NCBI GenBank assembly: GCA_030704615.1
Contig: CM060731.1
Span: 24,924,001-24,988,000, forward strand
DNA length: 64,000 nt
From: Takakia lepidozioides
Lineage: Eukaryota; Plantae; Bryophyta
Direction: 5' to 3'
Shown in pieces: positions 29,390 through 55,499 of the stretch. Made by a program: the position numbers and the translations under genes. The notes under the pieces are model-generated. The model was not told where the DNA came from, did not search any database, and worked only from the letters and a program-made list of their open reading frames with translations. How positions within the stretch are numbered: the first letter of the stretch is position 1; the number at the start of each line of letters is the position of its first letter.

Positions 29390-32300
29390 AGTCACTACTA
29401 AGTATACACCATTCCAATTAGTTTATGGTATGGAAGCCTTACTTCCAGTGGAATTCCTGTTACCTACAATGAGAACGGAGTGGGGAAAGAGAATGGAATT
29501 GCAAGACTCCATCAAGGTCAGGAAACATGAATTATACCATGTGGAAGAAGTACGTGCTGATGCAGCTGATAATATGACCAGAATTCAGATGAAGCGAAAG
29601 GAACAGTTTGATGAAGGCAAGTTAAAGACTTTTAAGACGGGGGATTTGGTTCTATGGTTGCAGAAGAAAGGAAAGATTCAAGCTTCTAAGCTTAAATCAC
29701 CATGGAAAGGACCTTATGTCATACAAAAGATGTATGATAACAACACCGCCATGTTACAAACCATTAACAAAGAAATGCTGGGAAGAGTCAATGCCAATAA
29801 GTTGAAGGGGTACAGTGGTATCCATGACAAACCCTTGCAGCATGATTTGCATGTTGAACCGCAAGAGCAGTCACGGGCTGCACCAGTGTTACAAACGGAG
29901 TATGGAGCACTTGTCGCTAGGCCGAGCATATATGACCAGGGCGGGCAAAACAAACGTGACACAGCCTATCACAGCCCATCAAGGCAAAGCACAACCTATC
30001 ACAGCCCATCACAACGTGACACAGCCTATCACAGCCCAGCACGGCGCAACACAGCCTATCACAACCTACCACAGCGTGTCACAGCCTATCACAGCTTACC
30101 GCAGTGCATCACAGCCTATCACAGCGTAACACAGTATGACACAGCCTGTCACAGCTCAACACAGCCTACTAGGGTTACACGATCCATAGAATCAGTGACA
30201 GGTGGATGCATAATAACTTCAGGAAAATGGCTGACGGAAGAGAAAACGGAAATTAGTTTAAAAATAGACCTTTGGAGGTCAAGGCGCGACACGCAGCTGA
30301 GAAGGAAGTGCAAGAACAGGTGTCATACAGAAAGAGGACAAGAACGGCCGTCAAAAGGGATGAAAGGCGGGCCCATTAATGAATACGGAAAAAGGGAAAC
30401 GGAACGAACGGCAAGTACAGATAAACGAAATTCTTGTCACATGTGTGATCCTAGTGGACTATCCAGCAGGGAAAGTCCACTAAAGAAAATAAAATCTAAA
30501 ATCCAGTCACAGCGGATACAGCCAATAGAAAAGCAGAGAAAGGATCAAGAAAATGGAGGGAAATTGAGCGCAAGAGGCGGCGTCGTTCTGAGTAACGGGC
30601 GTCTCGACGGGACAGACCATCAATGCTATAGCTTGGAAACTATGGAGGAACTAACAGACTATACGCTCGCAATATTACTTACGCAGTGGCATAGACACGA
30701 AAGGACAGAGCAGAGCTTTTCTCTTGAGCGATGCTTGCAAGCCCCGCAGGCTTACAAGAAATTACCCATAGCTTTCTGCGGCAACCATACGTTTATGCTT
30801 TGTGCACTACAGGCATTCCTGCAGTTGTTACAGCCAAAACAGTTCTGTGAGTCTAAAATGAAGAGAGTGAGAGGAATGGAGGAAATCAGGGTGAAGAGCA
30901 CCACAATTCTGCAGAAACAAACGATTGCTACCCCACAGGCAATACAGATACTGGAGGAGCTGAGATTGCAAGGATTGCAAAGCCTAGATTGGACATTACA
31001 CCATAGACAGTACATGTTACAATTTTTGCAGAACTTTGAGCCAAGGACAGGAACAACAACGGTGAAGGGAGTTGAATTGATGATTACTCCCCTATACCTC
31101 CAGCAATTGTTTCGATTGCCAGCAGGTCAGGTGCATGTGGAGGAACACAGGGCAAGACTGCAAATAGGGGACTTATTCCAAGAAGGGAGTTTATTTAAAA
31201 CTCAGGGTTATGCTTGTACCAAGGCTGTGTACCCAGGGCTAAAAGAGGTAGGCCAGGTATTGAACGTTCTGATTGCCATGAAACAGAACCAACAGTATTT
31301 GAGCAGATCCTTCACGGAGGAAATACTCAAAGGCCTGAAGGGACAAGAGGTACAATGGGCGGACATAATGTACAACGCACTGGTGGAGGAGATGAAAAGA
31401 TTACAAGGTACTACCGCAAAGTCTCCTATCATAGTGTCTGGCCCAATCATTGCTCAAATAATCCTTGATTCTGGCATACTTGATGAGCAAGAAAGAAAGG
31501 AAATGGGAGTGTTTGAGCCAGAAACCACTGCAATGGAAGAGCAAGGCTCTTCACACAGTGAGGGTGGACTAGCAGGGCAACCTGAGACTAAGAGGCAGAG
31601 ACGGGGAAAGACTGTAGTGGCGGATCCACTGGTTTCACGGATTCCGCATGATAATGTTTCCCAAGCTCATGTGCAGGAAGGGGCACAACAGCACAGAGAA
31701 ATGCTATTACTGGAAGCAGGACCTTCAGAGAGGGAGGAGGAAGTTACTTCTGTATCACAACCATCACAGCCAGCTGATCGACTTGTCACAAGGTCACAAG
31801 TTATCCATGCAGCTCAACCAGAAATAATTGATTTGGAAAGAGAAGTGTTAGATATTCCAACTACAGAACAGATAGTGGCAGAAATGGAGAAGGGGGACCT
31901 TCTCTATGAATATTCTGGTCTGGTCAAGGAGACAGAGATCCCAGAGGTGCAACAGTTGCCCAAGGGAAATCCTGAGGTGCATATAATACACACACCTGTG
32001 TCGGAGGTACCACAGGCGGAAGGTCATGACACTGTAGCACCGGTGATAGATGAAGTAGTTCAGGAAGAAAATCCGGTGGGACAATGGCCTGAATGGTTCG
32101 TGAGACATCACACTGTTGAGGATCAGGAGGAACAGCATCAACCTCACCATGATGACCCTCAACAGGCAATGCTGATGAGTTCCATAGGCAGGACACTTAA
32201 TTTGTTGGGGACTTATGTCAAATCCCATGTTCCAACTACCCAATTGACAGCCTTGAGAGAGGAACTCAGGAAGGAGTTCGAGGCTCGACTAGCCACTGAG

Positions 32301-34409
32301 TGTGCAAACAAGGTCGATGAAGAGGTCACTCTCAAGATGCAGCAGGACTTGGGAAATACAGAAGCGGCTTTGCAATTGGCCAAGGAACAATTGATTGAGG
32401 CAGGCCTCGCGCAAGACCAGTTGCACGAAGCACATAAGCAACAGCTCTACCAAATGCAGGTGCAGCATGAAAGCAAGTTGCAAGAAGTGAATGCACTACA
32501 TACGGAGTTGCAGACAGTGCATGACAGGATGGCGATACAATGTGCTACATTCACAACTATGCTTGAACAATCTACAAAAGAAATAAACAGTCAAGCGGAA
32601 AAATGTACGAAGGTAGAAGAGGAGAATGTTGAGCAATTGAAACTCATTGTCGATATGAAGAATACAATCTGTCGCAATGAGGATGCTTTCAAGCAATACA
32701 GGCAGGTTGAAGCTGATCAAGATAAGCACATCGTGGAGTTGCACCAAACGATCATGGCCAATAGAAATGAAATCGCGGTCAATAACAAGGCTTGGAGGGA
32801 AGCTAATAATCTGGCTGCTGCCTATGCGAAGTTGGTTGAACCTCAGGCGAAGCGCATGGAGGCTTTACAACAGCAGTTAGAAGTGTACAAGCTAAGAGAG
32901 GAGCAAACTCTCAGGGGAACCACAAGCAACTTGGTGGATAACAGCCTTATGCAGGTCTGGTTAGCACAAGGGCCAGTAGAGGGCAAAGCACCACGAAAGC
33001 TCACCCAAAGGGAGATGAATGAGCTCAGGCTGCAGGTGCAGAACATTGCCACAACTACTATAGACAATGTCTATAGTAGGATAGCAAAGTTACAAGAGGA
33101 TGTAGACGGACTGCAGACTCAAGTGGAGGACCTCACTTCAAACATCGACAAAAGAGTCTATATCCCTCAGGAACAGCTAATGGCTTCTTATTTACAAGCC
33201 AGAACTTTGGTTTTTCAGTCTTCACAGGAGGTGCAGGAGATGCCAATGATACAAGAGCCAGTACCACCACCACCACAACAAGTCACTGTACCAGTAGCTG
33301 AACCTGTGGTTACTACAACCACACCACAGCCACCACAGCCTGAGGTATGGGGCAATGCTGCTTTTAACCCACCTAAAACTCCAGCTGCAAGGGAGTACAG
33401 TAGGGCTATGATTATGCCCTTCAACCAAATTCCCATCATGTTGGATTTGGCTTGGAAAGAATTTAGTCCTCCGCAGTCATTCGCACATTACTACCAAATC
33501 ATGCGTATTTGGCTGCCAGTGGCAACTAGGACTAAAGTTCTTCCGAACAATCGACATATTGAAGATCATCACTTTGCACAATACTGGCACGAGGCAGGTA
33601 CCATGTTGAGGGAATTGATTGCTTTCCAGGTTGTACATGGACTCATTTATACCAAGACCAAGGAGGTAGCAAGTACTGTCATGGGATGCGGGTTATACTA
33701 CGCTGCTTGTTTTCTAGTACGTTATCACATTGAGCAACAAAAGATGCAAGCACGCTTTCTCAGTTATTCCAGTGGGGACCATTGGGTATTACCTTCGGTG
33801 CCACCTCATATGTACCTATATGACGCAAAAGCTATGATGCAAAAGGATTCTCAAATTCGTTCATGGTTTCAAGCGGCCTGGAACAATTTGTCAAAACAGA
33901 AATTCGGCATTGACGATATATTCTATAAGGGACATGTGGCATGGAAATACTTGCACGCTGCACCAGTAATTGGTACCCCACTCACCTGGACAGACAAGGA
34001 GCTCAGTGTCTACACCAATTTTGCTGTTCAGCGGTTACACCAAGTTGTAAAATATAAACTTCCAGACATGGTAGGACAACATTATATGCCCCAGATGATT
34101 CCACAAAAAGTTCAAAAATTAAAACACCAGAGAGGCGATGAGGATTCTGATACAACTGTTTCTTCACCGAATTCTTTTGACATGGGAGAAGACTATGCAA
34201 TTCAGATGGCGGAGAAGAAGCGACGGGGGTCTCCTATGCCGGAAAGGTTACCTCGATATCAGCCTCCAGAGGGACTCACTTATCCAGGTAGTGACCAACC
34301 ATCTCCGTCAACCAGAGACAGACCTAGGGCTCGTACACACAGTCCGCCAAGAAACTTTCAACGTCAAAAAGGTGCTCACTCACAAAGGTTTGCTAATCGA
34401 AATCAGTAA
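29328..34409 (+). CDS. Integrase C-terminus (GPY) in frame with a repeat linker and a ~1180-aa extra 3' ORF (possible own start 30858)
   Basis: 1693-aa open frame: ...SPWKGPY..., TAYHSP decapeptide repeats, then MKRVRG...FLQNFEPRTGTTTVKGVELMITPLYLQQLFRLP...WADIMYNAL, a long heptad coiled-coil and an aromatic-rich C-terminal domain. Confidence 0.8.
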   Translation: MQTERDTKLLTALWSYRTSYKVTTKYTPFQLVYGMEALLPVEFLLPTMRTEWGKRMELQDSIKVRKHELYHVEEVRADAADNMTRIQMKRKEQFDEGKLKTFKTGDLVLWLQKKGKIQASKLKSPWKGPYVIQKMYDNNTAMLQTINKEMLGRVNANKLKGYSGIHDKPLQHDLHVEPQEQSRAAPVLQTEYGALVARPSIYDQGGQNKRDTAYHSPSRQSTTYHSPSQRDTAYHSPARRNTAYHNLPQRVTAYHSLPQCITAYHSVTQYDTACHSSTQPTRVTRSIESVTGGCIITSGKWLTEEKTEISLKIDLWRSRRDTQLRRKCKNRCHTERGQERPSKGMKGGPINEYGKRETERTASTDKRNSCHMCDPSGLSSRESPLKKIKSKIQSQRIQPIEKQRKDQENGGKLSARGGVVLSNGRLDGTDHQCYSLETMEELTDYTLAILLTQWHRHERTEQSFSLERCLQAPQAYKKLPIAFCGNHTFMLCALQAFLQLLQPKQFCESKMKRVRGMEEIRVKSTTILQKQTIATPQAIQILEELRLQGLQSLDWTLHHRQYMLQFLQNFEPRTGTTTVKGVELMITPLYLQQLFRLPAGQVHVEEHRARLQIGDLFQEGSLFKTQGYACTKAVYPGLKEVGQVLNVLIAMKQNQQYLSRSFTEEILKGLKGQEVQWADIMYNALVEEMKRLQGTTAKSPIIVSGPIIAQIILDSGILDEQERKEMGVFEPETTAMEEQGSSHSEGGLAGQPETKRQRRGKTVVADPLVSRIPHDNVSQAHVQEGAQQHREMLLLEAGPSEREEEVTSVSQPSQPADRLVTRSQVIHAAQPEIIDLEREVLDIPTTEQIVAEMEKGDLLYEYSGLVKETEIPEVQQLPKGNPEVHIIHTPVSEVPQAEGHDTVAPVIDEVVQEENPVGQWPEWFVRHHTVEDQEEQHQPHHDDPQQAMLMSSIGRTLNLLGTYVKSHVPTTQLTALREELRKEFEARLATECANKVDEEVTLKMQQDLGNTEAALQLAKEQLIEAGLAQDQLHEAHKQQLYQMQVQHESKLQEVNALHTELQTVHDRMAIQCATFTTMLEQSTKEINSQAEKCTKVEEENVEQLKLIVDMKNTICRNEDAFKQYRQVEADQDKHIVELHQTIMANRNEIAVNNKAWREANNLAAAYAKLVEPQAKRMEALQQQLEVYKLREEQTLRGTTSNLVDNSLMQVWLAQGPVEGKAPRKLTQREMNELRLQVQNIATTTIDNVYSRIAKLQEDVDGLQTQVEDLTSNIDKRVYIPQEQLMASYLQARTLVFQSSQEVQEMPMIQEPVPPPPQQVTVPVAEPVVTTTTPQPPQPEVWGNAAFNPPKTPAAREYSRAMIMPFNQIPIMLDLAWKEFSPPQSFAHYYQIMRIWLPVATRTKVLPNNRHIEDHHFAQYWHEAGTMLRELIAFQVVHGLIYTKTKEVASTVMGCGLYYAACFLVRYHIEQQKMQARFLSYSSGDHWVLPSVPPHMYLYDAKAMMQKDSQIRSWFQAAWNNLSKQKFGIDDIFYKGHVAWKYLHAAPVIGTPLTWTDKELSVYTNFAVQRLHQVVKYKLPDMVGQHYMPQMIPQKVQKLKHQRGDEDSDTTVSSPNSFDMGEDYAIQMAEKKRRGSPMPERLPRYQPPEGLTYPGSDQPSPSTRDRPRARTHSPPRNFQRQKGAHSQRFANRNQ
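29958..30170 (+). repeat. 30-bp tandem repeat (10-bp CACAGC periodicity), 7 units, copy A
   Basis: acagcctatc-type units start at 29961, 29991, 30021, 30051, 30081, 30111 and 30141. Confidence 0.9.
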
Positions 34410-34447: not shown

Positions 34448-35357
34448 TGTTAGAGGACTGTCTGGGACTTAGACACTTAAACGAGATCTGTAGGGTACCC
34501 TTAATTTTTGCACAGACTGAGACCAACAGGAGCCTTAGGGGTGACAGCAGCGCACTGTAGAGGAGGGTTACACAGCCCGTTACAGTCGTCACAGCAGACA
34601 CAGCCCGTCACAGTCGTCACAGCCGACACACCCATCACAGCCGACACAGCCACACAGCCAAACACAGTCGCACAGCCAGTCACAGCCCGTCACAGTTTCA
34701 CACAGCCAGTCACAGCTTGACACAGCTGTCACGATCATAGGGAACGGAGAGCAGGACAGGGAACGACTATGGGGAACAACACCTGCGAAGGGAACATGTT
34801 AGTTCACAGACGACGGTTAGTGAGGGAAACGGTTAGAACCACGGATAGGAAGATAAAGAGAGAAGCGGGGAATTTTGGGAATATCATTCGGTGGAGGACT
34901 TCTTGGTCATGGAGGAGAGGGGATCGGGCAGAGATTAAGAACGGAAGTGAAGATAGAGAGATGATGAGTAGATGCTTGTTATATGCAAGGCTGTAATGAT
35001 ATTGTAGAGTAGATTAGAGACACAATGACTTCGGTCTGATACCTGTTAAATCATAATCGGATACTTTTACGATACAATCACACTGTGTAGAGAGATCTGA
35101 GTGAAGCTGTGGAATGAATGGATGAGTTGATGGAATCCAATAGATTGATAAAGCAAACTGATACTTAATTATCAATGGTAAGGTAGCTAACATGAATGCC
35201 AAAAGGGAAACAAATAGGAAACACCCCCATGATACACTAGCTGTAGGTCATGACTGATTGTTCTGCGCGGGCTGAGTACTTAGAGATTTCCAACTCTTCT
35301 ATCTTGGAGTTTCCGCCTCGAATAGCGAAGGGATGGGTGAGTAAATGCCGCGCGACA
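34448..35357 (+). repeat. 3' LTR of copy A (910 bp)
   Basis: TGTTAGAGG...GCGCGACA, directly after the PPT; homologous to 41825-42762 and 54057-55029. Confidence 0.93.
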
Positions 35358-36295
35358 GCTGTGGCCTTTGGGGCTGTGACCCTGTGACCTTTGTAGGGCT
35401 GTGACAGGTTGTGCCTGTGGCCTTCGGGGTTGTGATGGGCTGTGATAGGCTGGGGCCTGTGGGGCTGTGACCCTGTGACCTGTGTAGGGCTGTGACAGGC
35501 TGTGGCCTGTGTGGGGCTGTGACGGCTGTGACCAGTGATCTGTGTGGGCCTGTGCTGGTCTGTGGTGGCCCATGTTGACCTGTGGACAGCCTGTCCTGAC
35601 TCGTGGAGGTAGTGGTGGACTGCCTAAGGTCTGGCATGTGGTCTTGAAGGCCAAATTTTGAAGCTCGTGGAGGGCGGTTTGAGGAGTATCTTCATGATAT
35701 TCCCATGGTCATGCAAGTGAGGGAAGAGATGAGAAAAAAAGTGTTGGGATGAGGGCATGCTGGGGTTAGGCATTGCTTTAGCTTCTCTTCCTCGTAGTTT
35801 TCCACCCTCGCATTAGGCCAAGACCTTTCCGTAGGTGGAGGCAAGAGTCAGTCCGGGTTTGGGCTGGGGTGTCCTTGCAGGAGCAACACCGTGGAGTTGT
35901 TTTTGGTGTGGGGGAGTTGTCATTTTGATTTCTTGTGTTTGGATCCCCTCCATACCTGCATGCTTGACTGTGCGCCATGTTAGTTTTGTGTGGGCGTTTG
36001 TTTTTATAGGTGATTGGTCCGGATTTGATCACCGGCCAGTCCTAGAGCATGCTGTCGATGGTGAGGCTGGGGTGATGACCAGTCAGACCTTCATTGTTTC
36101 TCTTGTGGTGAGTTGGAGGTGATGACCAGCCAACCATAGGAGTGCTTGCGGTGGATGCAGGTACAGGTGTAGGCTATGTTAGGAACCTAGTATTCCAAAC
36201 CATAAGGCGCAACAGGTTCTCTACCCGGTTACCTTGTGGAGAGGGGGTTAGGGATATGTTCATGACCGGTTGAGTGATAGTTTGTCAACACGGAG

Positions 36296-38860
36296 ATGCC
36301 ACTAGTTGCTGGGGACAGTGCCGGTTTGAGCACTAGTGATACTAGTGGGTATATGAGACGAGGTGTGCGGTTTAGGCCACCTTCACCTCCTGTGTCTTCT
36401 ATGGAAGGTTTTGATTCGGATTGTGAATCAGGAGGACTCATACCGGCGGTGCAAGTTGTTTCCTTGTCATTGTTGTGGGACACAATGGAGGAGATGTATG
36501 GAGCTACCAAGGGGCCACGAAGGTACTCTGGGGCGGTGGGCACCATCGAGTTGGATGATTTTATCCAATAGTTTGATAGTTGGTGTGATTTGCAGCAAAT
36601 GCGCAATCCACAACTATTTACGCCTTTCATGGCACGGAAGGGGCTGTTTCAGCACCTTGAGGGGCCGCCTATGGATGATTACCATGAGTTCAGGCGGGGG
36701 CATGAGGTTGAGATCGAGGAGTGGAGGATGTACTGGTCACCCGACTATGTCTCCATCACTAGGGGCACTAGAGCCACGAGGGTAGTGGCTACACCTGTCG
36801 CTGCACCGGCAGCTTCAACAAGCAACAGTGGGACTAGTGGGACTGGTGGTACAGTAGCTACGACGTCCACCCAAGCCACTACCGCACCAGCACTAGTACC
36901 CGTCCCTGTCTTCAACCCTGTTGTGGAGTTCTTCAAAGAATTGAGAGGGAACTACCAAGGGGTGAGGACAGAGAAGTTGCGGAGCTTGCAAGAGTTCCAA
37001 CGAAAGCCAACTGAGAGCTTGAGGGAGGCTTTCACTCGCATGAGGCGCTTGATAAATGTAACCCAAGGGGTTACGGAAGCTCAGGCAGTCCAATTATGGT
37101 ATGGGATATTGGACAAGGAGCTGAGGAGAAGGGTGCGGGATGCAACTCTCCTACAAGCGGCCCAACCCACCTTAGCAAATGTGTTTTTGCTGGCAGAGCG
37201 GATAGAGCTCAACATGGTGGAGGAACGAGCGGTCATGGTGGGATTTGCTAAGGAGACACCACGGGGTAGTGGTGCTCCTAGCCAACCACTACCTCAACGT
37301 GCTCAAGGCAACAAGGGGGCTCAGGTGAAGCTCAGGGAAGGGCAGAGAGGACCTCAGATGCAGGGGTCTCTCCCTTCATTTGCTGGCCAACAACGGGCGG
37401 ATGTGGTGTGCTGGACATGTGGAGGACCCCATGTCAAGAAGGATTGCCCAGAGAGAGACAAAGGGCCAGCACATGCACAGCCTACACAGTTGCAGTGTGG
37501 GCATTGTGGCAAGCATGGGCATGGAGAGGCCTGGTGTTATGGTTTGCATCCTGAGTTGCGCCCAGGCCAGTTCCAAGGGAACAATGGTGGCTGGGGGCGA
37601 GGTGGAGCAGCCCAGAGAGGACGAGGTGGCCAGGCACGAGGTGCAGGCCAAGGGCAAGCTCAACATGGCCGAGGACGTGGAGGTCAGGGTGTTGACCAAG
37701 GCATGGCCAACCGGCTTCAGCAGCTAGAGCAGAGGCTCGCTGCCATGGCTACAGCTCAAGTGGTACCGGCTCCAAGGCTGGATGGTCCACCTCCTGCTCC
37801 TGAGGGAGGAGATATGGGAGACATGGGATTCATGTGCAGAGCAGCACTACCATTAGTGCAGGTGGAGTCTACTGCAGCCGTGACTCGAGGAGCAGCACGA
37901 GTTCCTGAGCCACGAGGTGCAGAGGTGGAGTTGGATTCACAGCGTGGGGAGGCAAGTCGTCAGACTAGGCTTCCTCAGTCATTCACATTGGCGGAGACAG
38001 TGTCGACGCCATCCATGGCACCTAGTTCTCGCCCGACTGTTACCAAGGCGGAGATTACTATGCCATTGGGGAGAGCTACACGGGTAGCACCACTACCTAG
38101 TGTTGCCAAGGCTACAGCAGCTAGTGTGCTGCTGGGAGCGGCCACATCTGTGTGTCAGGCTCCATTGTTCTCGGCTACCATGATTGCGACGCCGGGGGTA
38201 AGACCAGCTGAGGTGTTCAGGTTGGCAGTTACACTCTGTGAGAGTGGGGAGGCTACTTCATCTTCTGCGGAGATAGTGAGAGGTGTAGTGCCGGAGGGAT
38301 CCTTGGATTTGAGGGTCAAAACTGCCACAGCGGCACCATGGCAAGCTGCAGCTGTCAGGTTGATGGAGCTGCCAGCTAGGCCAGCCATTGAGCGCGCCAT
38401 GGTGACACCTGGAGTTGTCATGTTAGACAACCAGGATGATATTTTAGGTTTGAGTGGACCGGCAGGCAAGAGGTACCGGCCACTGCGGGTCTTGTTGGAC
38501 TCGGGAGCTCAGCCATTGATGCTGGGCAGAGCTGCTATTGCAGGCTTGGGCCTCACGGAGGCGGATATGGAGCCTTGTCCTTTCCAGATACAGACGTCTC
38601 TGGGAGGATCGGAGCAGGCTTGGGGCATGACACGACATGAGTTGGCTATCAGACTACGGCTGGATCACCCTACAGATGGCTCAGTGATGTGAGCCAAGGC
38701 CATTGTGACAGACGCGGTCTCGTACGATGTCCTGGTTGGTGGGCCAGTATTGTACCCAATGGGCTTCACCCTGGATTTTTGGGAGGAGTCAGCTTCATAT
38801 AGGCCTGGATGGCAGTCAGGGGAGGGCCGGCGTATGTAGCTCCCTGTGACATTCATAGGA
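36296..38860 (+). pseudogene. gag: Family 2 gag + aspartic protease (premature stops at 36569, 38690, 38837)
   Basis: One frame from ATG 36296. Capsid-like QKPTESLREAFTRM, zinc knuckles CWTCGGPHVKKDC and CGHCGKHGHGEAWC, protease VLLDSGAQ...YDVLVG. Confidence 0.88.
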
Positions 38861-39179
38861 GGAGTTGCGGTTGCCCAGCGGGGCAAGATGCCGACACTAG
38901 CAGCATTTGCAACGGTAGTGAGTTGGCCTGGAGAGTTGCTTGAGGGCAACGCTCATTCAGAGGATGTGTCACCTCCAAAAGAGTAGGAAGACATGTATGG
39001 TATGGCGGAGTTGTCTGCCATGGTTGCTCAGACTCCATTATGGGGCACGAACAAGGATTTGCAGCGGGTTGCTAATCGACGGGTGCAACAAGCCTGGGTG
39101 GAGGCTTTTGTACCATCAAGAGAGGAGGAGAGTGTGGGGATTGCACCAGGACCACCTCAGTTGTCTCCATTGGAGGCAG

Positions 39180-40140
39180 TATCCGGATGAAGGCATTTGT
39201 CTTCTGGACTTGTTTGGCGGGATCAGCACCGGATTGGCTGCTGTGTTACAGGCAGGTTTACGAGTTCGGCGTTACCTGTATGTCGAGAGAAATAAGACTG
39301 CACGACGCATTTCACTTCGTCATGTTGCTCAGTTGGTGCAGCAGTACCCTGAGTTGTTGCCGATGTTTGCAGTTCGTGGATATCAGCAGGCCTTGCCAGC
39401 AGACATTTCGTTGCTGGGGGCGCAGGATTGGGAGCGGGTTGGCTCCATTGATCTGGTAGTGGCAGGTTGGCCCTGCCAAAGGCATTCATTAGCCGGGCAT
39501 GGCAATGGATTGCAAGACTCAAGGTCGGGTCTGTTTTGGGAGATGGTGCGGGTTTTGCGCCACTTGCAGCTTCATCAAGCTGTATCTCCAGCATACATCT
39601 TGGAGAATGTGCCACTGATGGGCGATTCTCAGGCCAGGGTGATGGCCAGTGTGCATCAAGTCCGGTCATGGCTTGGGTCAGCAGTGTTGCTAGATGCAGC
39701 TACAGTGGGGTCACGGGTTCATCGTCCACGGCTATGGTGGACTAACTTGATGTCACCCGCACTGCTCAAGCGTGCATTTGATGGGGTGCAGCGGCCAGCA
39801 CATCTCACAGTGGATAGCATTTTGGACACAGGGAGGCAGTCTCAGCGTGTGAGACACGATGACCATTCGCCTTTGGCAGTGGTCAACAAGGTGGGGTCAA
39901 CCACGAGCAGCATTACCTACACTGCTCAGCTTCCCAGGATCGCATATTTTCCGGGATAGTGGACCTGGCCTCCAGTGGGATGCTCAGTTGCAGCAGTTAG
40001 TAGAGCCTAATGCTGAAGAGCGTGAGCAGGCAATGGGTTTTACCACTGGTACCACGGCGGTGCTGTCTCTTTCTGAGGCATCACGTCGTCAAGTGTTGGG
40101 GCAAGCAATGGATCTCAATTGCTTGACCTGGATTATCAGC
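39180..40140 (+). pseudogene. C5-cytosine DNA methyltransferase domain (DNMT3-like) inside the retrotransposon Pol
   Basis: Motif I LLDLFGG (39201), II YVE, IV DLVVAGWPCQ (PC at 39471), VI YILENV (ENV at 39603), VIII HRPRLWWTNL (RPR at 39723). After a frameshift at ~39893: IX EREQAMGFTTGTT and X RRQVLGQAM. Confidence 0.93.
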
Positions 40141-40559
40141 TTGGCTATGGCTGAGCAACGCAGAGTGCGGAGTACACTTCCCTCGATGGTCTCTCTGCCT
40201 ACCGAGATGGTACAGGCAGTGAGTGGGGGCGAGCATGAGAGGACCACGGGGTGCAGGCATCCATGGCACACGTGGGAGGTGCTCGAGGTTCAGAGGGAGT
40301 TGGCAGCCAGGGCGGCGGTGATGGATGAGGTTGGGGATTTTTCTCGGGTTGAGGAAGTCCTCGAGTATGAGATGATGGGGCAGGATGAGGCCTTGTCATT
40401 GACTGAGCAGGTAAGGAGGACTGCTCAAGAGGTTGCAACATAGCAACCACTGGACGCGTCCTCTACCTCTAAGCCCACTGGACTTAAGGTTGAAGTTACG
40501 GAGGACAATTGGGAGCCTGACATTGGACCCATTGTCACCGGAGGAGAGAGACGACATAT

Positions 40560-41824
40560 ACGGCGGTTCCTGAGGGCTTACAGGAATTGTTTTGCCTTCA
40601 GTTTGAAGGACTTGGGGCACTGAAGGGTCAAGAGATCCGTATTGAGTTGGCCACTGACACGCCAATCTTTTGGAGACCCTATAGATACAGTGACATGGAG
40701 AGGTCTTTGATTCAGATGAGGACTCAAGATCTCTGGGAGGCTGGTTTGGTGGAGCTCTCTGGTGGAGAGTATGCTTCAGCCACAGTGATGTCAGCCAAGA
40801 AGGATGTCTATGGCAATTGGACAGAGAGACGTATGTGCGGTGATTACCGGCCTGTAAATCATCAGAACAAGTCCGATAAGTATGTCATGCCAACACCGGA
40901 GGAGATCTTTGATGCCATTGGGCATGCTAAGGTCTTTAGCACTTTGGATTTACGATCCGGATATCACCAGTTGCCGATCAAGGAGGCAGTCAAGCAGAAG
41001 ACGGCATTCTGGGGGATCAATGAGCACGGCAAGGATTGCCTATATCAGTGGCAGTTCTTACCATTTGGGCTTAAGAACGCTCCTGCAGATTTTCAAAGAG
41101 TCATGGATAGGATTCTAGCAGGGGTGGACTTTGCTCGGTGCTACATAGATGACATCATCATCTTTAGTGCTACGGTGGAGGAGCATGAGAGACACCTTCA
41201 GGTGGTATTGGAGCGCTTGAGAACGCACGGATTGAAGTTGCATCCGGGGAAGTGCAAGTTTTTCCACAACCAGATTGAGTATCTGGGTCACATGATATAT
41301 CCTGGAGGATTGGGGGTACAGCAAACTAAGGTAGAGGCCATTGCACAAATTCCACGCCCCACGGATGTGAGCCGAGTTCAAGCTTTCATGGGGTTGGCAA
41401 ACTATTATAGACGGTTTGTCGAGGGATTTAGTGCCATTGCAAAGGCTCTAACCAAGCTGACCAAGGTGGACTAGGAGTGGCAGTGGGAAGATGAGCAGAA
41501 ACGAGCTTTTCAAGAGCTCAAGGCGAGGTTGACCTCAGCGCCTATCCTGAGATGACCTATCAGGGGGCGTCCCTTTCAGCTGCATACGGATTGGAGCGGT
41601 GCTCACACAGGTGGATGATGAGGGAAGAGAGTTCGTAGTGGTTTATACTAGCCGCTCGAACAACGCTGCAGAGGCTAAGTACAGCTCATATGAGGGAGAG
41701 TGCTTAGTTGCAGTGTGGGCCGTAGCACACTTCAAGTGCTATCTATACAACAATCTCTTCACCCTTGTCATGGATCACCATCCACTCAAGTGGTTGATAG
41801 AGTCAGACAAGCTTACGGGGAAGC
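40560..41824 (+). pseudogene. pol: Family 2 reverse transcriptase and N-terminal RNase H
   Basis: RMCGDYRPVN, STLDLRSGYHQ, LPFGLKNAP, CYIDDIIIF, YLGH; then LHTDWS, YEGECL, DHHPLKWL, with stops and a small deletion. Confidence 0.92.
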
Positions 41825-42762
41825 TGTTAGAGGACTGTCGGGGACTTAGACACTTATACGGGATCTGTAGGGTACCCTTAATTTTTGCACAGACTGAGAC
41901 CAACAGGAGCCTTAGGGGTGACAGCAGCGCACTGTAGAGGGGGGGTTACACAGTCGTCACAGCCCACACAGCCATCACAGCCACACAGCCGACACAGCCG
42001 ACACAGCCCGACACAGCCCGACACAGCCACACAGCCAGTCACAGCCCGACACAGCCAAACACAGTCGCACAGCCAGTCACAGCCCGTCACAGTTTCACAC
42101 AGCCAGTCACAGCTTGACACAGCTGTCACGATCATAGGGAACGAAGAGTAGGACAGGGAACGACTGTGGGGAACAACACCTGCGAAGGGAACATGTTAGT
42201 TCACAGACACGGTTAGTGAGGGAAACGGTTAGAACCGCGGATAGGAAGATAAAAGGGAAAACGGGGAATGAAGGATTTTTATTTCACAGCATTCGGAGGA
42301 GGACTTCTTGGTGATAGAGGAGAGGGGATCGGGCAGAGATGAAGAACGGAAGTGAAGATAGAGAGATGATGAGTAGATGCTTGATATATGCAAGGCTATA
42401 ATGATATTGTAGAGTAGATTAGAGACACAATGGCTTCGGCCTGATACCTGATAAATCATAATCGGATACTTTTACGATACAATCACACTGTGTAGAGAGA
42501 TCTGAGTGAAGCTGTGGAATGAATGGATGAGTTGATGGAATCCAATAGATTGATAAAGCAAACTGATACTTAATTATCAATGGTAAGATAGTTAACATGA
42601 ATACCATAAGGGAAACAAATAGGAAACACCCCCATGATACACTAGCTGTAGGTCATGACTGATTGTTCTGCGCGGGCTGAGTACTTAGAGATTTCCAACT
42701 ATTCAATCTTGGAGTTTCCGCCTCGAATAGCGAAGGGATGGGTGAGTAAAAGCCGCGCGACA
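41825..42762 (+). repeat. 5' LTR of copy B
   Basis: TGTTAGAGG...GCGCGACA, followed by the PBS. Confidence 0.95.
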
Positions 42763-43350
42763 TTTGGCGACCATACTGGGGACCTGGGACATGAACAACC
42801 AGATGTGACAGGCATCTGGTGGGATCATGGTGGTTGGACCATTAAAGAATTTGAAGTGAATCAAATTCCCTGTGGAACGAAGGAAGAAAGATTGTCCAAA
42901 CAATTCTTTCAAAGGTTCTTGGAATTGCCAGACGGTTGTAAAGAAAATATTCTTAAACGAGTGCATGATGCTGATCCAGAATGGGGTCTGGAGAAAGGAG
43001 TGATAAAGATTTATCAGGTAGCCTGTAGAGGAAGAGCATGTTGGTTACCAACATTGGTTTATGTGATAGCATTGCTATCCATTAAACGAGTAGAGTTTGA
43101 AGGCTGGGAAGAAAGAAAGGTGAATGTTTATACTCATATGCATGAAGAGCTTGTGCTGGTAAAGAATTGGATTCCAAAGGATATTTTTTGGATCAAACTC
43201 ACACCAAGAACAGCTTTTCAGACTTGTTTGCCATATGGTTATATGGTAACGGAGACTTCAAGTATAGCCAAGGGTGCATTGAAGCTTGAAAGAAACCCAG
43301 GCATATACGAGAGATATTACAGAAGAGAGTTTTGGTTATTGCCACATTAA
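42655..43350 (+). CDS. Extra 5' ORF (231 aa, unknown function) starting inside the LTR, upstream of gag
   Basis: Open frame; homolog at 56230-56911 differs largely by synonymous changes. Confidence 0.7.
   Translation: MTDCSARAEYLEISNYSILEFPPRIAKGWVSKSRATFGDHTGDLGHEQPDVTGIWWDHGGWTIKEFEVNQIPCGTKEERLSKQFFQRFLELPDGCKENILKRVHDADPEWGLEKGVIKIYQVACRGRACWLPTLVYVIALLSIKRVEFEGWEERKVNVYTHMHEELVLVKNWIPKDIFWIKLTPRTAFQTCLPYGYMVTETSSIAKGALKLERNPGIYERYYRREFWLLPH
42765..42781 (+). promoter_or_regulatory. Primer binding site (tRNA-Arg-like)
   Basis: TGGCGACCATACTGGGG lies 2 nt after the LTR and is complementary to a tRNA 3' end ...GGTCGCCA. The tRNA identity is from recall, not from a search. Confidence 0.7.
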
Positions 43351-43371
43351 AAGAAATGAAAGACATGGGAC

Positions 43372-45693
43372 ATGAGTGATGAAAGAGAAGCTAGACGACA
43401 GAGATATTCAGCAAAAAGAGAAAGCTATCTGAAAGCTAATTATCCATATTTTTGGGAGAGAGGAATAGACATAGGGGAATCATCTGGACCTCTCACACCA
43501 TCAAGATCAAAGAGTGCATCACCTATACCGGAAGAACTAGAGTTGGATGCCACTCCTTCTGTTTCTTTGCAAGAAAGATTAAGGGAATTGGTACAGGAAG
43601 AAGATCAATCACGAGGTGAAAGATCTGAGGTACATCCTTGGATAAAATACTTGACAGAAATCTTTGATAAGAGTTGGCATGGAACACCAAAAGCAGGAAC
43701 TCCAGTTTCTGAAGCAGAAGATGAAGAAGGAGAAGAGGATGTGGCAGAGCCAACGGAGAGTTCAGACTCTCCAACACCATTACAGTTGAGTTACATGAGT
43801 GAAGAAGAAACCCAAGGGCAGAACTTGGAGGATGAAAACAGAGAGAAGAAATTAGAAGAGGAAGAATATGAAGAAGTAGACCCAACAGCTGAGGTTGAGA
43901 CTACAACCAGGACATCCCAACCCGTTGGACCTGGATCAAGTGGAGCACTTGGATCACAGGCCAACGAAGGTGTCGGCTCAGGGGGATCAGGCGGGCTGCC
44001 TGGATCTGGCTCTGGGGGGACAGGGAGTGTGGGAATTAGTGCAACTGAAGCTGGGAATACTGTGAATATCGTGGGGCCAGAAGCAGGGAGTGCTCAAGGG
44101 CCACCACTTGGTGGAAGATCCACCACAAAAACAACAGGTCCAGAAGGACCAGCACCAGCAAGGGTGCCAGCACCTGTCAGTGGGCAGAAGGTAGGGCCAC
44201 AGATGGCGTTACAACCAACACGGGCAAAACCACCCTTTCCAATATATTCAGGAAAAGGGGATCCCGATGTACACATTAGCCAATTTGAGCACATGTGTAT
44301 AGTGAACAATGAGAATGGCGATGATGCCAAGATGAGACTGTTTCCTTGCTCACTTATCAAGAAAGCAAGTGAATGGTATGCAAGATTCCTTGATAATCAT
44401 TTCCTAACCTGGAATGGCTTGAATACAGCATTTCGAAATAGGTTCAGGACAAGTAAAACTGAGGATGAAGTGTATGGAAGTTTACAACAGCTGAAGCAGA
44501 AGAAGCATGAAACTGTTGAAGAGTATATGGAGAAGATGGAATTGATGATGAAAAAGCTGGCTGCAGTACCAGCACCCGGGTTACAGAAGACTTGGTTTGT
44601 GAGTGGACTAAGACCAGAGTTGCAAAAGAAAGTGGATATGTTACCCCATAACACAGTGGAGGAGGCATTTGAAACTGCGAACAGAATTGAGCAATTGGGA
44701 ATGCTCAGGAGAGAGAAAAAGGAAGATGAGGACTCTGAGGATGAGTCAGATGAAGAAGAAGAGCAAGAACTAAAAAGAAAGAGTAAGAGAAAGGAGAAGT
44801 TGAAGAGGGATAACTATGAAAAAAAATTGGAAGAAATCTTGAAGAAGTATGCCACAGAGGCTGCAACACATTGGAGGAAGGGTGTATGGTGTGCAAAGTG
44901 CCAGAATGAAGGCCATACCACCAAAGAATGCCACATGAAGGAGAAACACTGTACTATCTGTAAAATGGATAACCATTCTACTGAGAATTGTTACTACAAC
45001 AGAAGGACAGCTGCAAGAGAACCTAGGCAAGTAAGGGTGCATCAGGTGCAGCCCCAGCCAAGAAGAAACAATGATCAGGACCACTATGGTAGGTCTGGTG
45101 GTTATAACAATGGCATGGAAGGGAGAGGTAATTCAAGAGGGAATTACCAAGGAAATTCCAGAGGCAACTATCAGGGTAATCCAAGGGGGAATTACCAGCC
45201 CGGGAATCAGGATTATAGAAATAATCCAAGAACAGACCAAGGGCGAGGACCCAATGGTGAAGAGCTATGTTACTATTGTAATCAGCCAGGACATCGCAAG
45301 GCAGCCTGTTCATTCTGGATAAGACACCAGAATGAGATGAGAGCTCCTGTGAATGAGGGGCCAGTGGTGGCAGCTCACATGGTTAGGCCATGTGTTGTAC
45401 CAGAAGTAAGTACAATGATAGTAACAAGAAGTAAAGCCAAACTAATACCTCCAGTAGAAGAGGAAGAAGATGAGACTGGAAGTGGCAATGATATGCCTGA
45501 AGATGAAGAGACTTGGAAAGATGAGAAGGAACTGCACAAGGAAGTGGCAGATACTATAAGGGAAATGCAAAAGAGTACTGATATTCCTGTGGCAGATTCC
45601 TCTGATTCGGATGGAGAAAAAGAAGGGAGTGAGGAAGAAAGAAAAAAGAAGATGCAGACATGCAAAGTAATGAAGAGACTTTGGCTGAAGTAA
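43372..45693 (+). CDS. gag: Gag of copy B
   Basis: YSGKGDPDVHISQFE, LFPCSL..ASEWY, QKKHETVEEY; three CCHC knuckles. Confidence 0.92.
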   Translation: MSDEREARRQRYSAKRESYLKANYPYFWERGIDIGESSGPLTPSRSKSASPIPEELELDATPSVSLQERLRELVQEEDQSRGERSEVHPWIKYLTEIFDKSWHGTPKAGTPVSEAEDEEGEEDVAEPTESSDSPTPLQLSYMSEEETQGQNLEDENREKKLEEEEYEEVDPTAEVETTTRTSQPVGPGSSGALGSQANEGVGSGGSGGLPGSGSGGTGSVGISATEAGNTVNIVGPEAGSAQGPPLGGRSTTKTTGPEGPAPARVPAPVSGQKVGPQMALQPTRAKPPFPIYSGKGDPDVHISQFEHMCIVNNENGDDAKMRLFPCSLIKKASEWYARFLDNHFLTWNGLNTAFRNRFRTSKTEDEVYGSLQQLKQKKHETVEEYMEKMELMMKKLAAVPAPGLQKTWFVSGLRPELQKKVDMLPHNTVEEAFETANRIEQLGMLRREKKEDEDSEDESDEEEEQELKRKSKRKEKLKRDNYEKKLEEILKKYATEAATHWRKGVWCAKCQNEGHTTKECHMKEKHCTICKMDNHSTENCYYNRRTAAREPRQVRVHQVQPQPRRNNDQDHYGRSGGYNNGMEGRGNSRGNYQGNSRGNYQGNPRGNYQPGNQDYRNNPRTDQGRGPNGEELCYYCNQPGHRKAACSFWIRHQNEMRAPVNEGPVVAAHMVRPCVVPEVSTMIVTRSKAKLIPPVEEEEDETGSGNDMPEDEETWKDEKELHKEVADTIREMQKSTDIPVADSSDSDGEKEGSEEERKKKMQTCKVMKRLWLK

Positions 45694-48600
45694 TATGTCA
45701 GACCAAAGCAGAAATTACCATTGGACAGCTATTAGCTGTGGCACCTTATTGTAGGCACAGGCTGTATCAAGCAATCAATCGAATTGCCCAAGAGACAGGA
45801 AACACAGACCTGAACAGCAAGGTGACCAGTTATAATGTGAAGCCGGAAGGGCGAGAACCAGTCATGGACTTTGATGATTCTATGCCAGTAATCCAATTGA
45901 GAATTGGAAGCACAGAACTAACTGATGTACTGATAGATGGTGGTTCTGGAGTAAATATCATGACAGACCAATTAAGGAAGAAGCTTGGTCTAAGTAACAT
46001 GAAACCAGCCCCATTTACAGTAACAATGGCAGATCAAAGAAGTGTACAGCCATTGGGATTAATAAGAGGAGTTAAGATACAGATACAGAAAATGATCTTT
46101 ATGATCACAGTAACTGTATTAAAAATGGATGAAGTCATGGAGGCTTACTCCTTATTATTGGGACGTCCGTGGCTGAAACAGGCCAGGGTATTCCATGACT
46201 GGAATTCTCAGTTACTAACCGTGCATAATGGGATACACGAGATACAAATTACCACAAAGAAATCTAGTAGATTACCTGCTACAAGAAGACCTCGAGGAGT
46301 CAGAGAGTATGACTGGAGAGGAGGACTGGATGAGGAGCAGGAAGCTACCCTATTTGCTGCACACCCAGAGTGGGAGCAGGTTGCAGAGATGCGGCTGGAA
46401 AGCCTAAGTTGTTTGAGAGGTATCTGCTGTGGTGTAGTGACAGCAACACCAACTGAAGAGGAAACCAGCATTTACCCATCACATTTCTATGAAGAGAGAG
46501 AGAGGAGAAATAGAAATCCTAGAAGAACCAGCCACTGTGAGCTTACAGGATGAAGTGGTGACTGGTTGGACAATCACAGCTGATGAGCAGGTGAGAGAAG
46601 TAAATGTGGGAACTCACGAGGAACCGAGGATGGTGAAAGTAGGAGCTGATTTGGAGCCGGAATTCTTCGAAGAAGCTAAAAGCTTGTTCATCAAATACAG
46701 AGATGTATTTGCTTGGAGCTATGAGGATCTAAAAGGGATACCACCTGAAGTCTGTCAGCATAAGATTGAACTGGAACCAGGGTCAGTACCAATCAAGCAG
46801 GCGAGGTATAGAATGAATCCCAACTACGCACAGAAGGTTGGAGAAGAGATAAAGAAGTTGGCTGAGGCTAAGTTTATATACCCAATAGAGTATACAACTT
46901 GGTTGTCACCCATTGTTATAGTTCCCAAGAAGAATGGCAAACTAAGAGTATGTGTGAACTATAAGAAGCTGAATGCTTGTACGAAGAAAGATCCTTTCCC
47001 TTTGCCATTCACAGAAGCAGTATTAGACACTGTGGCAGGCCATGAGATGTACTCATTCATGGATGGCTTCAGTGGTTATAATCAAGTGCAAGTGGCAGAA
47101 GAAGACCAAGGGAAAACAGCTTTCATCACAGACTGGGGGGCTTATGCATACAAAGTCATGCCCTTTGGACTTTGTAATGCACCAGCGACCTTTCAGAGAG
47201 TGATAAGTGAATCTTTTCATGAGTATCTGGATGATTTCATGCAGGTATTCTTGGATGATTTCAGTGTGTACAGCTCTAAGAATGAGCACTTGCATAAATT
47301 GGAGTTATGTTTGGCCAGATGCAGGATGAGAGGTCTGGGCCTGAATCCAGAGAAGTGTACTTTCTGTGTGAACTCAGGGGTGCTTCTGGGACACATTGTG
47401 TGTAAGAAGGGACTCCTTGTGGATCCCAGAAAGACAGAGTCCATTAAAGCCTCTCCACCACCAGTGAATGTTAAAAGTCTACGAGATTCCTTGGGCAAAC
47501 CAGTTATTACAGGAGATTTGTCAAAAGGTATGCACAAATAGCAGCACCATTGAGCAAACTACTGAAGAAAGATGCAGTGTTTGCCTGGACAGCTGAATGT
47601 CAACAGTTTGAGGAACTTACACTGTCAGTAACAACTACACCTGTGCTGATTAACCCTCACTGGCATGTAGTATTCCATGTTCACTGCGATGCATCAGGAG
47701 AAGCGTTGGGAGCGGTGTTAGCCCAGAATGTTACAGGGAATATAGATTCACCTGTGTACTATGCTAGCCGGTTGATGAACAGTGCTGAGAGGAACTATAG
47801 CACAACGGAAAGAGAAGCATTGGCAATGATTTATGCAGTCAAGAAATTCAGGCATTACCTATTGGGAAGAAAGTTTATGTTTTATGTGGATCACCAGGCT
47901 CTGATATATCTGGTGAACAAACCTTTGATAAGTGGAAGGATAGCGAGGTGGTTAATAATCTTGCATGAGTTTGAGTTCGAGGTTATTTACAAGCCTGGCC
48001 GTTTGCATCTTGTGGCAGATCATTTGTCACGACTAACAACAGGAGAGCCGCCACAGGAGTGGACGATCAGTTACCTGATGCGAGTTTATTTGTAATGGAG
48101 GTGCAAGGAAGTGCAGATGAATGGTTAGATTGGCAGTGGCCAATCAGATACTACCTTGCTCATGGTCAGTGCCCACCTAGTTATGGTAAGGAGCAGAGGA
48201 AGAGAATCGCTATCAAAGCTTTACCTTATACTATGGTAGGAAGCAGAATGTATAAGTTAGGACCTGATGGAGTACTAAAACGATGCTTGTACCACCATGA
48301 AGTAAATAAAGTTTTGGCGGAAGTTCATAAAGGAGTGGCTGGAGGTCATTTTGGAGAAGAGACTACCAGTAGAAAGATACTACTCGCAGGATACTGGTGG
48401 CCTACTTTGTTCAAAGATGTACACGAGTATTGTCAGAAGTGTGATGAATGTCAGAGGCTAGGACCTTTGCAGAGATCTGGAAGGATGGCCTTGCATCCTA
48501 CAATGCCTACGGAACCATTTCAGAAATGGGGACTAGACTTTGTTGGACCAATTAACCCACCATCCAAGAATACACGAAACAGGTACATAATTACAGCCAC

Positions 48601-49265
48601 TGATTATACTACAAAGTGGGTGGAAGCTAAAGCTTTGAGGGACAACACAGCCAAGTCCACAGCAAGGTTCCTGTACGAGAACATACTTACACGATTTGGC
48701 TGTCCCTTAGAATTTATCAGTGATCAAGGAAGTCACTTCATGAATGAGACCATTGAGTTGTTGACTAAAGAGTTTATGATTGTGCATAGAAAGAGTACAA
48801 CATATTACCCACAGGGTAATGGGCAGGCAGAGGCTACCAACAAAATACTATGTACTATCTTGGCTAAGATAGTCAATGCAAACAGAACGGATTGGGATAC
48901 AAAGCTGCTGACAGCTTTGTGGTCATACAGGACCTTCATATAAAGTCACCACTAAGTATACACCATTCCAATTAGTTTATGGCATGGAAGCCTTACTTCC
49001 AGTGGAATTCCTGTTACCTACCATGAGAACGGAGTGGGGAAAAAGAATGGAATTGCAAGACTCCATCAAGGTCAGGAAACATGAATTATACCATGTGGAA
49101 GAAGTACGTGCTGATGCAGCTGATAATATGACCAGAATTCAGATGAAGCGAAAGGAACAGTTTGATGAAGGCAAGTTAAAGACTTTTAAGACGGGGGATT
49201 TGGTTCTATGGTTGCAGAAGAAAGGAAAGATTCAAGCTTCTAAGCTTAAATCACCGTGGAAATGA
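45660..49265 (+). pseudogene. pol: Pol of copy B (PR, RT, RH, INT), frameshifted
   Basis: Protease VLIDGGSGVN...LLLGRPWL; RT/RH/INT near-identical to copy A but split over ORFs 45660, 46489, 47550, 48059 and 48984. Confidence 0.93.
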
Positions 49266-49283
49266 CCTTATGTCATACAAAAG

Positions 49284-54027: not shown

Positions 54028-54056
54028 GGACACGGCTTTTTGAGGGGGAAGGGGTA

Positions 54057-55029: not shown

Positions 55030-55499
55030 GAAGCTTGGCACGGTGGGCACTCATAACTCCAGAGTATGACTTTCAAGTTGTGCATCGACCGGGTTTTGGT
55101 CAATCGGGATCGGATGGATTGAGTCGCAATCCATTTACGAGCAGCAGATGACACTGGAGCTCGGTGCATGGTGAGACGGACAGGAGATGGGTGGCCAGGA
55201 TGGCTATGCATCTGCCTTTTTTGTGTACTTTGGCATTTCCGTGAGTCCTGTTTTGACCCTCCACACAGGTATGACTGTAGACGGAGTGGTCCTGAGGACC
55301 CTGAGATAGTGATGAGCTAGTGGTACCAGAAGATATACATGGAGATTCGGCTGTGTTGGACTACCATCCTACTGGAGACATGCAGCACTGTGACTACCAA
55401 GGAAGGGATCAGATCCTGCAACGAGCCCAGAGGTTCAATGGGAGGGATACACCTGTCCGAGTATGGGAAGATTGTCGGGGAGGATTGTGCCTCCCCCAC
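55030..55499 (+). mobile_element. Family 2 (DNMT) element continued: RNase H end and linker towards integrase
   Basis: Allowing for indels, it reads [34 protein letters not shown], the direct continuation of ESDKLTG before 41825. Confidence 0.88.

What the first reader, a model, noticed from the sequence alone, without database searches (positions are those of the whole stretch)
36296..41824. Ty3/Gypsy retrotransposon with a complete DNMT3-like cytosine methyltransferase built into Pol, between protease and RT
Seen: C5-MTase catalytic motifs I, II, IV (PCQ), VI (ENV), VIII (RxRxWWxNL), IX and X lie in linear order at 39180-40140, on the same strand and colinear with gag-PR upstream and RT-RH downstream, with no introns. 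Motifs VIII-X resemble DNMT3 and lack the circular permutation of plant DRM. Established: retrotransposon-borne DNMTs have been reported in Symbiodinium dinoflagellates and the charophyte Klebsormidium; they are not part of standard land-plant LTR lineage descriptions. Inference: this land-plant family delivers its own methyltransferase as a polyprotein product, possibly methylating its cDNA or LTRs for self-regulation or host mimicry. This copy is decayed.
Basis: partly seen in the sequence, partly recalled or inferred. Interest (0 to 1): 0.9.

Follow-up and report, generated by a model that had tools for sequence, protein, structure and literature searches.

The report
Plant retrotransposon with DNMT3, leaky stop
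This is a broken copy of a jumping-gene family, also found in liverworts and peat moss, whose capsid-protease protein ends in its own DNA cytosine methyltransferase, separated from the copying enzymes by a conserved stop codon that is likely read through, so the methyltransferase would be made at capsid levels and would likely mark the element's own new copies.

Summary
Observation confirmed. An intronless, unpermuted DNMT3-type domain (39189-40155) lies between protease and RT of a decayed Gypsy-type copy in a likely moss genome. It is a family trait: relatives occur in Marchantia, Calypogeia and Sphagnum (53-73% identical where most of the query is covered). Fetched metagenome loci keep the order gag-PR-DNMT-RT-RH-IN-PHD, and dN/dS between families is about 0.1.

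One correction: the DNMT is not in one frame with Pol. An in-frame stop, TAG-CAA-CCA at 40441 (the tobamovirus readthrough motif), separates Gag-PR-DNMT from RT-RH-IN-PHD; 33 of 36 non-redundant junctions have a stop there.

Relatives end in split direct repeats with 4-bp target duplications, recalling the DIRS-like repeats described for Klebsormidium KnitGypsy-Dnmt3. Distant homologues (e.g. Scenedesmus) carry the DNMT between RNase H and integrase instead.

Verdict: a land-plant variant of a known algal kind. My searches found no paper on it in land plants, but this scan noted the family before in another genome (e1-7364918). Readthrough and methylase activity are inferred, not shown.

The parts
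35358..36484 (+). 5' non-coding part of the DNMT element; its true 5' end is cut off by a long terminal repeat of another element (34448-35357)
   Evidence: Covered by many contigs in all 4 runs laid; boundary read
36485..38386 (+). gag with two CCHC-type knuckles (37409-37447, 37496-37537); stop at 36569 in this copy
   Evidence: weak Retrotrans_gag hit, E 0.005
38387..38857 (+). aspartic protease (LDSGA 38495); stops at 38690 and 38837 in this copy
39189..40155 (+). DNMT3-type C5 cytosine methyltransferase domain, motifs I-X in linear order, catalytic residues intact in this copy, frame break near 39895
   Evidence: fold of a relative's domain matches DNMT3A/B
40441..40449 (+). Conserved in-frame stop in readthrough context, TAG CAA CCA, ending ORF1 (Gag-PR-DNMT)
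   Evidence: motif UAG-CAR-YYA from PMC3159437
40458..40555 (+). Predicted extended stem-loop 3' of the stop (possible readthrough stimulator; weak support)
40507..41360 (+). Reverse transcriptase (YIDD 41142); frame break near 40616
   Evidence: Pfam RVT_1 110 bits
41575..41824 (+). RNase H, first part
   Evidence: Pfam RT_RNaseH 77.7 bits
41825..55029 (+). Nested, distantly related conventional-LTR Gypsy element (LTRs 41825-42762 and 54057-55029, 93% alike; target duplication GAAGC at 41820-41824 and 55030-55034); no DNMT
55035..55499 (+). Continuation of the DNMT element: RNase H end and linker toward integrase, cut by a further LTR at 55500; no integrase core or PHD of this element was found in the window
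   Evidence: tblastn to P0039 residues 459-584

Best explanation
This is a decayed copy of a multi-copy bryophyte Gypsy-type retrotransposon whose first reading frame is Gag-protease-DNMT3 and whose second frame (RT-RNase H-integrase-PHD) lies behind a conserved stop that is likely read through, so the methyltransferase would be packaged at Gag levels and would likely methylate the element's own new cDNA. SHOWN: domain order, conserved catalytic residues, purifying selection, the conserved stop and its context, and split direct repeats with 4-bp target duplications in relatives. INFERRED: minority readthrough giving the long polyprotein (about 0.7); release of the DNMT by the protease; methylation of cDNA inside the particle or at integration, so that new copies arrive pre-marked (about 0.5); PHD-guided integration (untested).
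For: Family trait: 36 longer homologues, named ones from Marchantia, Calypogeia and Sphagnum. In 76 metagenome loci, the domains around the DNMT follow gag-zf-PR-DNMT-RT-RH-IN-PHD as far as each contig reaches, apart from a few deleted or interrupted copies such as L013, L023, L038. In the host species, 66,558 contigs of run X1 lie on the element and all 30 bins are covered in 4 of 4 runs from 2 studies. Selection: window versus three main-family loci gives DNMT dN 0.22-0.24 and dS 2.3-2.6, like RT (dN 0.17-0.21, dS 1.8-2.5). Catalytic C is kept in 139 of 141 and motif VI E in 141 of 141 homologues. RT and DNMT trees both group the window with Calypogeia, Marchantia, L001 and the main family. 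Stop: 33 of 36 non-redundant junctions have a stop at this position (TAG 23, TAA 10), 32 of them followed by CAA. Only 1 of 71 TAG/TAA triplets in the window's element has a CARYYN context, and it is this one. A stop-free natural ORF1 (P0349) ends at the homologous place. One contig of run X12 has 35 differences over 601 nt, all listed, none in TAG CAA CCA. UAG-CAR-YYA is the tobamovirus readthrough consensus. The idea that cDNA is the target follows de Mendoza et al. for DIRS elements.
Against: No activity has been shown for this lineage; KnitGypsy-Dnmt3 was silent in yeast, called inconclusive. The element is not more CpG-depleted (observed/expected 0.44-0.54) than the nested element without a DNMT (0.18-0.44), so there is no self-methylation signature. 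The main family has CAA-CCC, 5 of 6 motif letters, followed at once by ATG, which would also allow reinitiation. 10 of 36 junctions have TAA and 2 have a sense codon. dS between families is near saturation, so the ratio is rough; within the main family rare DNMT variants are neutral (1.14) and common ones only moderately constrained (0.47). The stem-loop z-scores are modest (-0.6 to -2.3), and the covariation controls lean toward the structure. In many distant homologues the DNMT is continuous with RT, or lies between RH and IN, so Gag-level dosage is not required across the clade.
Confidence: 0.55

Rival explanations
1. The DNMT works in the nucleus on integrated copies or other host chromatin, damping the family's own activity or altering host silencing, rather than on cDNA in the particle.
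For: ORF1 placement gives an abundant, protease-releasable enzyme. Host DNMT3 does de novo and heterochromatic methylation in moss (PMC6453930 passages). A host-benefit brake is among the options raised in PMC5890265.
Against: The domain has no DUF3444, which host plant DNMT3s carry. The family is abundant in the host. In most distant homologues found here the DNMT sits next to integrase, which points to cDNA.
Confidence: 0.2
2. ORF2 (RT-RH-IN-PHD) is made by reinitiation or from a separate or spliced RNA; the stop is a true terminator.
For: ATG lies two codons after the stop in the main family. Many database ORFs begin just upstream of RT, including a Coleochaete transcript ORF marked complete.
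Against: The window and L001 have no ATG there. The two frames are in phase in the copies without indels, and CAA is kept after 32 of 33 stops.
Confidence: 0.2
3. The domain acts on RNA, or binds nucleic acid without methylating DNA.
For: No DNA activity was seen in yeast for the Klebsormidium enzyme. RNA methylation was proposed for SymbioLINE DNMTs.
Against: Profile and fold match DNMT3A/B far better than DNMT2 (E 4e-25 versus 1e-4). A related-type enzyme, SymbioDIRS-Dnmt3, methylates CG.
Confidence: 0.1
4. A one-off captured host DNMT3 fragment riding along neutrally.
For: This copy is decayed, and rare variants among decayed copies are neutral.
Against: Same position in liverwort, moss and algal elements, matching RT and DNMT trees, dN/dS about 0.1 between families, near-invariant catalytic residues.
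Confidence: 0.02

Closest known systems
KnitGypsy-Dnmt3 of Klebsormidium nitens (de Mendoza et al. 2018, PMC5890265; sections 9, 10, 11 and passages read, supplements searched by term)
   Same: Gypsy domain set, intronless unpermuted Dnmt3-related domain, purifying selection, and DIRS-like terminal repeats (their Fig. 4c legend); relatives here have split direct repeats. Two Klebsormidium RTs fall in the same broad RT clade.
   Different: Host is a land plant; the paper's species table has no Marchantia or Sphagnum row by term search. There the DNMT is described as part of the Pol ORF; here it ends Gag-PR and a conserved readthrough-type stop precedes RT.
SymbioDIRS-Dnmt3 of Symbiodinium (same paper)
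   Same: Retroelement-borne Dnmt3; shown to methylate CG de novo in yeast.
   Different: DIRS class, described as an independent acquisition; this element has a DDE integrase and 4-bp target duplications.
Host plant DNMT3 (PpDNMT3a/b; Yaari et al. 2019, PMC6453930, passages read)
   Same: Unpermuted DNMT3-type catalytic domain.
   Different: Host genes have a C-terminal DUF3444; none is found here, and this domain sits inside a retroelement ORF.
Type I readthrough signal of tobamoviruses, benyviruses and pomoviruses (Firth et al. 2011, PMC3159437, passages read)
   Same: UAG-CAR-YYA context, A at -1 in the window, and a predicted 3' stem-loop.
   Different: Here it lies after a methyltransferase and before RT in a retrotransposon; readthrough is not measured.

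Membership tests
DNMT3-type C5 methyltransferase | Motifs I-X in linear order with catalytic PC, ENV and RxR | tested here: met
DNMT3-type C5 methyltransferase | Closer to DNMT3A/B than to DRM, DNMT2 or bacterial enzymes | tested here: met
   Profile against PDB: DNMT3A 91.6 bits, DRM-type 44-58, M.HhaI 40, DNMT2 25. Model of relative P0008 (pLDDT 84.5): all listed Foldseek hits are DNMT3. No tree with host DNMTs was built.
DNMT3-type C5 methyltransferase | Methylates cytosine in DNA | not testable with these tools
   Needs an assay
Host plant DNMT3 gene | C-terminal DUF3444, stand-alone gene | tested here: not met
   No Pfam family on 39853-40440; feature
Ty3/Gypsy (Metaviridae) | Order PR-RT-RH-IN with DDE integrase | tested here: met
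   Relatives; the window copy is cut before the integrase core
Ty3/Gypsy (Metaviridae) | TG...CA ends and a 4-6 bp target duplication | tested here: met
   3 of 4 relatives with both ends have a perfect 4-bp duplication, the fourth 3 of 4 letters; not testable on the window copy
Ty3/Gypsy (Metaviridae) | One full LTR at each end | tested here: not met
   Relatives have A ... B-A-B split repeats, or A ... B; the window copy's ends are missing
KnitGypsy-Dnmt3 family | DIRS-like repeat layout with Gypsy domains | tested here: met
   Met in the main family of relatives only; the paper's legend does not say which DIRS layout
KnitGypsy-Dnmt3 family | DNMT inside the Pol ORF | tested here: not met
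   Stop between DNMT and RT in 33 of 36 junctions
KnitGypsy-Dnmt3 family | Purifying selection on the DNMT (Ka/Ks below 0.2) | tested here: met
   About 0.1 between families, with dS near saturation; 0.56 within the decayed main family
KnitGypsy-Dnmt3 family | DNMT monophyletic with KnitGypsy-Dnmt3 | not tested
   No sequence identified as KnitGypsy-Dnmt3 was returned by any search
Type I stop-codon readthrough site | UAG-CAR-YYA between in-frame ORFs | tested here: met
   Exact in the window and L001; 5 of 6 letters in the main family
Type I stop-codon readthrough site | Fusion product made | not testable with these tools
   Needs a reporter, ribosome profiling or proteomics
Troyka | CG...CG ends, 3-bp target duplication, animals only | tested here: not met
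   PMC12440569 parts 1-3 of 5

The most novel reading that the evidence does not exclude
An ancient green-lineage clade of PHD-bearing, split-repeat Gypsy-type elements has kept a DNMT3 from green algae to mosses and liverworts, moved it between polyprotein positions, and in land plants placed it on the Gag side of a leaky stop, so that each particle carries methylase at capsid dosage and delivers pre-methylated cDNA to chromatin.
Probability: 0.4. Interest if true: 0.8.

Novelty: new variant of a known kind. Interest (0 to 1): 0.6.

Why it matters
What retrotransposon-borne methyltransferases do is an open question, and the one streptophyte case was described as low in copy number and gave no activity in yeast. 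Relatives in Marchantia, a transformable model with methylation mutants, make the question testable in a land plant. The conserved stop sets the enzyme's likely dosage, which constrains the mechanism. In practice, many Marchantia gene models that carry a DNA_methylase domain are pieces of this element and could be mistaken for host methyltransferases. Split repeats would also hide the family from finders that need paired LTRs (inference).

Tried and rejected
No whole genome is held for this window, so copy number and the host family's ends were not determined. Viral contigs: 45 pattern matches, none related. Expression: no RNA holder is on record; run X12 is only guessed to be RNA, so its single contig is used as a sequence variant and not as evidence of transcription. 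Contig depth was not used as copy number. Among the 15 best-supported joints shown (179 not shown), two skip across the DNMT, both in one run with short sides of 21 nt; they were not taken as DNMT-less copies. The single-sequence structure prediction failed, pLDDT 36.6. CpG depletion gave no self-methylation signature. Troyka was a recalled lead for unusual termini and is unrelated. The ESM Atlas did not answer. Two papers on readthrough were not held. Literature searches that found no land-plant description; from these lists I read passages of PMC12344493, 10.1101/363937, PMC6453930, PMC11982613 and PMC10952607, none of which describe it. Most subscription papers, Repbase entries and figure images were not searchable, and bioRxiv supplements are closed, so absence from print is not established. 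Trees left out 20 redundant angiosperm RTs and 19 redundant or partial DNMTs, and carry FastTree local supports only. dN/dS used 56 non-duplicate loci of 70 with more than 150 DNMT codons.
Full report
Observation. Pfam DNA_methylase passes its cut-off (47.5 bits). The best solved relative is DNMT3A for the window's own 238 residues, for a 56-sequence profile (91.6 bits against 44-58 for DRM-type enzymes and 40 for M.HhaI), and for a confident model of relative P0008. No DUF3444, the companion domain of host plant DNMT3, is found. The copy is decayed by six stops and four frame breaks, but its catalytic residues are intact.

Setting. The element runs from 35358 to 41824 and resumes at 55035-55499. 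A conventional-LTR Gypsy without a DNMT (41825-55029) has inserted into its RNase H with a GAAGC target duplication; that element's LTRs are 93% alike, so the DNMT copy is older. Further LTRs of that second family cut off both ends. The nearest named hits of a MADS-box ORF in the window are mosses, so the host is likely a moss; this is an inference.

A family trait. The DNMT has 36 longer homologues; the named ones come from Marchantia, Calypogeia and Sphagnum. A metagenome scan gave 76 loci whose domains follow gag-zf-PR-DNMT-RT-RH-IN-PHD as far as the contigs reach, with a few deleted or interrupted copies. Most belong to one main family that groups with the Sphagnum protein; L001 and L051 are separate families. 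In the host species, 66,558 contigs of one run lie on the element and all 30 bins are covered in 4 of 4 runs from 2 studies; three runs are one sample and may be the window's source. Between families DNMT dN is 0.22-0.24 at dS 2.3-2.6, similar to RT. Within the main family, rare variants are neutral (1.14) and common ones constrained (0.47), as expected for dead copies of a selected lineage. The catalytic C is kept in 139 of 141 homologues and motif VI E in 141 of 141. RT and DNMT trees agree on the window's nearest relatives. The one-off capture reading is refuted.

The correction: two frames. An in-frame TAG at 40441 separates the DNMT from RT. It is not decay. Of 36 non-redundant junctions, 33 have a stop at this position (23 TAG, 10 TAA), 2 have a sense codon and 1 is deleted; 32 of the 33 stops are followed by CAA. 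A natural stop-free 1332-aa Gag-PR-DNMT ORF ends there (P0349), and many RT homologues are separate RT-RH-IN-PHD ORFs of 1000-1150 aa. In the host species no difference is listed at the stop among 40 of 62 rows shown, and one contig whose 35 differences are all listed keeps it. The window's context, TAG-CAA-CCA, matches the UAG-CAR-YYA readthrough consensus of tobamoviruses (PMC3159437); it is the only such context among 71 TAG/TAA triplets in the element. A stem-loop is predicted from about 15 nt after the stop in all four families, with 5 of 20 pairs changed on both sides, but z-scores are modest and the controls favour a structure derived from the same rows. Against readthrough: the main family has CAA-CCC and an ATG directly after; the window and L001 have no ATG there.

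Termini. Relatives do not have paired LTRs. L036 reads A (333 bp) ... purine tract, B (112 bp), A, B, each unit TG...CA. L024, L054 and L070 show the same B-A-B end, and others end at a single B. Three of 4 loci with both ends have perfect 4-bp target duplications, as a DDE integrase would leave. The legend for Klebsormidium KnitGypsy-Dnmt3 describes DIRS-like repeats with Gypsy domains. The window copy's ends are missing, so this is shown for relatives only.

Wider clade. A search of 1.84 billion representatives found 541 clusters at E up to 1e-10. Of 69 fetched proteins with both RT and DNMT, 43 have the DNMT after RT (between RH and IN, e.g. Scenedesmus) and 26 before it (e.g. Closterium; some are spliced bryophyte gene models that skip the stop). 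On the RT tree these, two Klebsormidium RTs and a Coleochaete ORF form one clade apart from angiosperm and animal Gypsy elements (support 0.999 including one long-branch sequence), and the RH-DNMT-IN forms are one subclade (0.973).

How it likely works. ORF1 would build the particle, the protease would free the DNMT, and a minority of ribosomes would read through to make RT-RH-IN-PHD. The methylase would then be as abundant as Gag beside the new cDNA, its most likely substrate; de Mendoza et al. proposed the same target for DIRS elements. Layout, selection and the stop are shown. Readthrough (about 0.7) and cDNA methylation (about 0.5) are inferred. The Klebsormidium enzyme was silent in yeast, called inconclusive, and CpG content shows no self-methylation signature.

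Novelty. Retrotransposon DNMT3s are known from Klebsormidium and Symbiodinium. Seven searches found no land-plant description, within the limits of the library. An earlier, unchecked note of this scan reported the family in a peat-moss-like genome; its short listing does not mention the stop or the termini. I rate this a new variant of a known kind, interest 0.6.

Noticed in passing
window 29325-34409 and 49266-53990: The nested Gypsy family carries a long ORF (1694 aa in the first copy, starting in the integrase tail) with no Pfam match, and a 232-aa ORF without a Pfam match before gag (42652-43350). The Atlas look-up failed.
   Followed up: partly
window 34448-35357, 41825-55029, 55500-56337: Three insertions of the same LTR family sit at or inside the DNMT element, which may reflect targeting of this element or of shared heterochromatin.
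   Followed up: no
window 2075-3340: Intronless 421-aa MADS-box ORF; nearest named hits are Ceratodon and Physcomitrium.
   Followed up: partly
window 60422-61387: Tandem array with a 95-bp period.
   Followed up: no
window 11854-13262 and 22931-24017; 19180-19367 and 21426-21640: A pair of direct repeats about 89% alike, with inverted arms between them; probably further mobile elements.
   Followed up: no
window 35373-35530: The DNMT element's 5' region holds CACAGC-type short repeats in reverse orientation to those in the nested family's LTRs.
   Followed up: no
L013, L014, L026, L033, L074: Copies that end at a single B repeat instead of B-A-B, possibly by recombination between the two B units; L026 keeps its target duplication.
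   Followed up: partly
proteins P0032, P0236, P0280: Some distant DNMT-bearing elements also carry a G-patch between DNMT and integrase.
   Followed up: no
protein P0308: A member of an RT-RH-IN-PHD cluster close to this family is labelled as an uncultured cyanobacterium in public databases; probably plant DNA in a metagenome bin.
   Followed up: no
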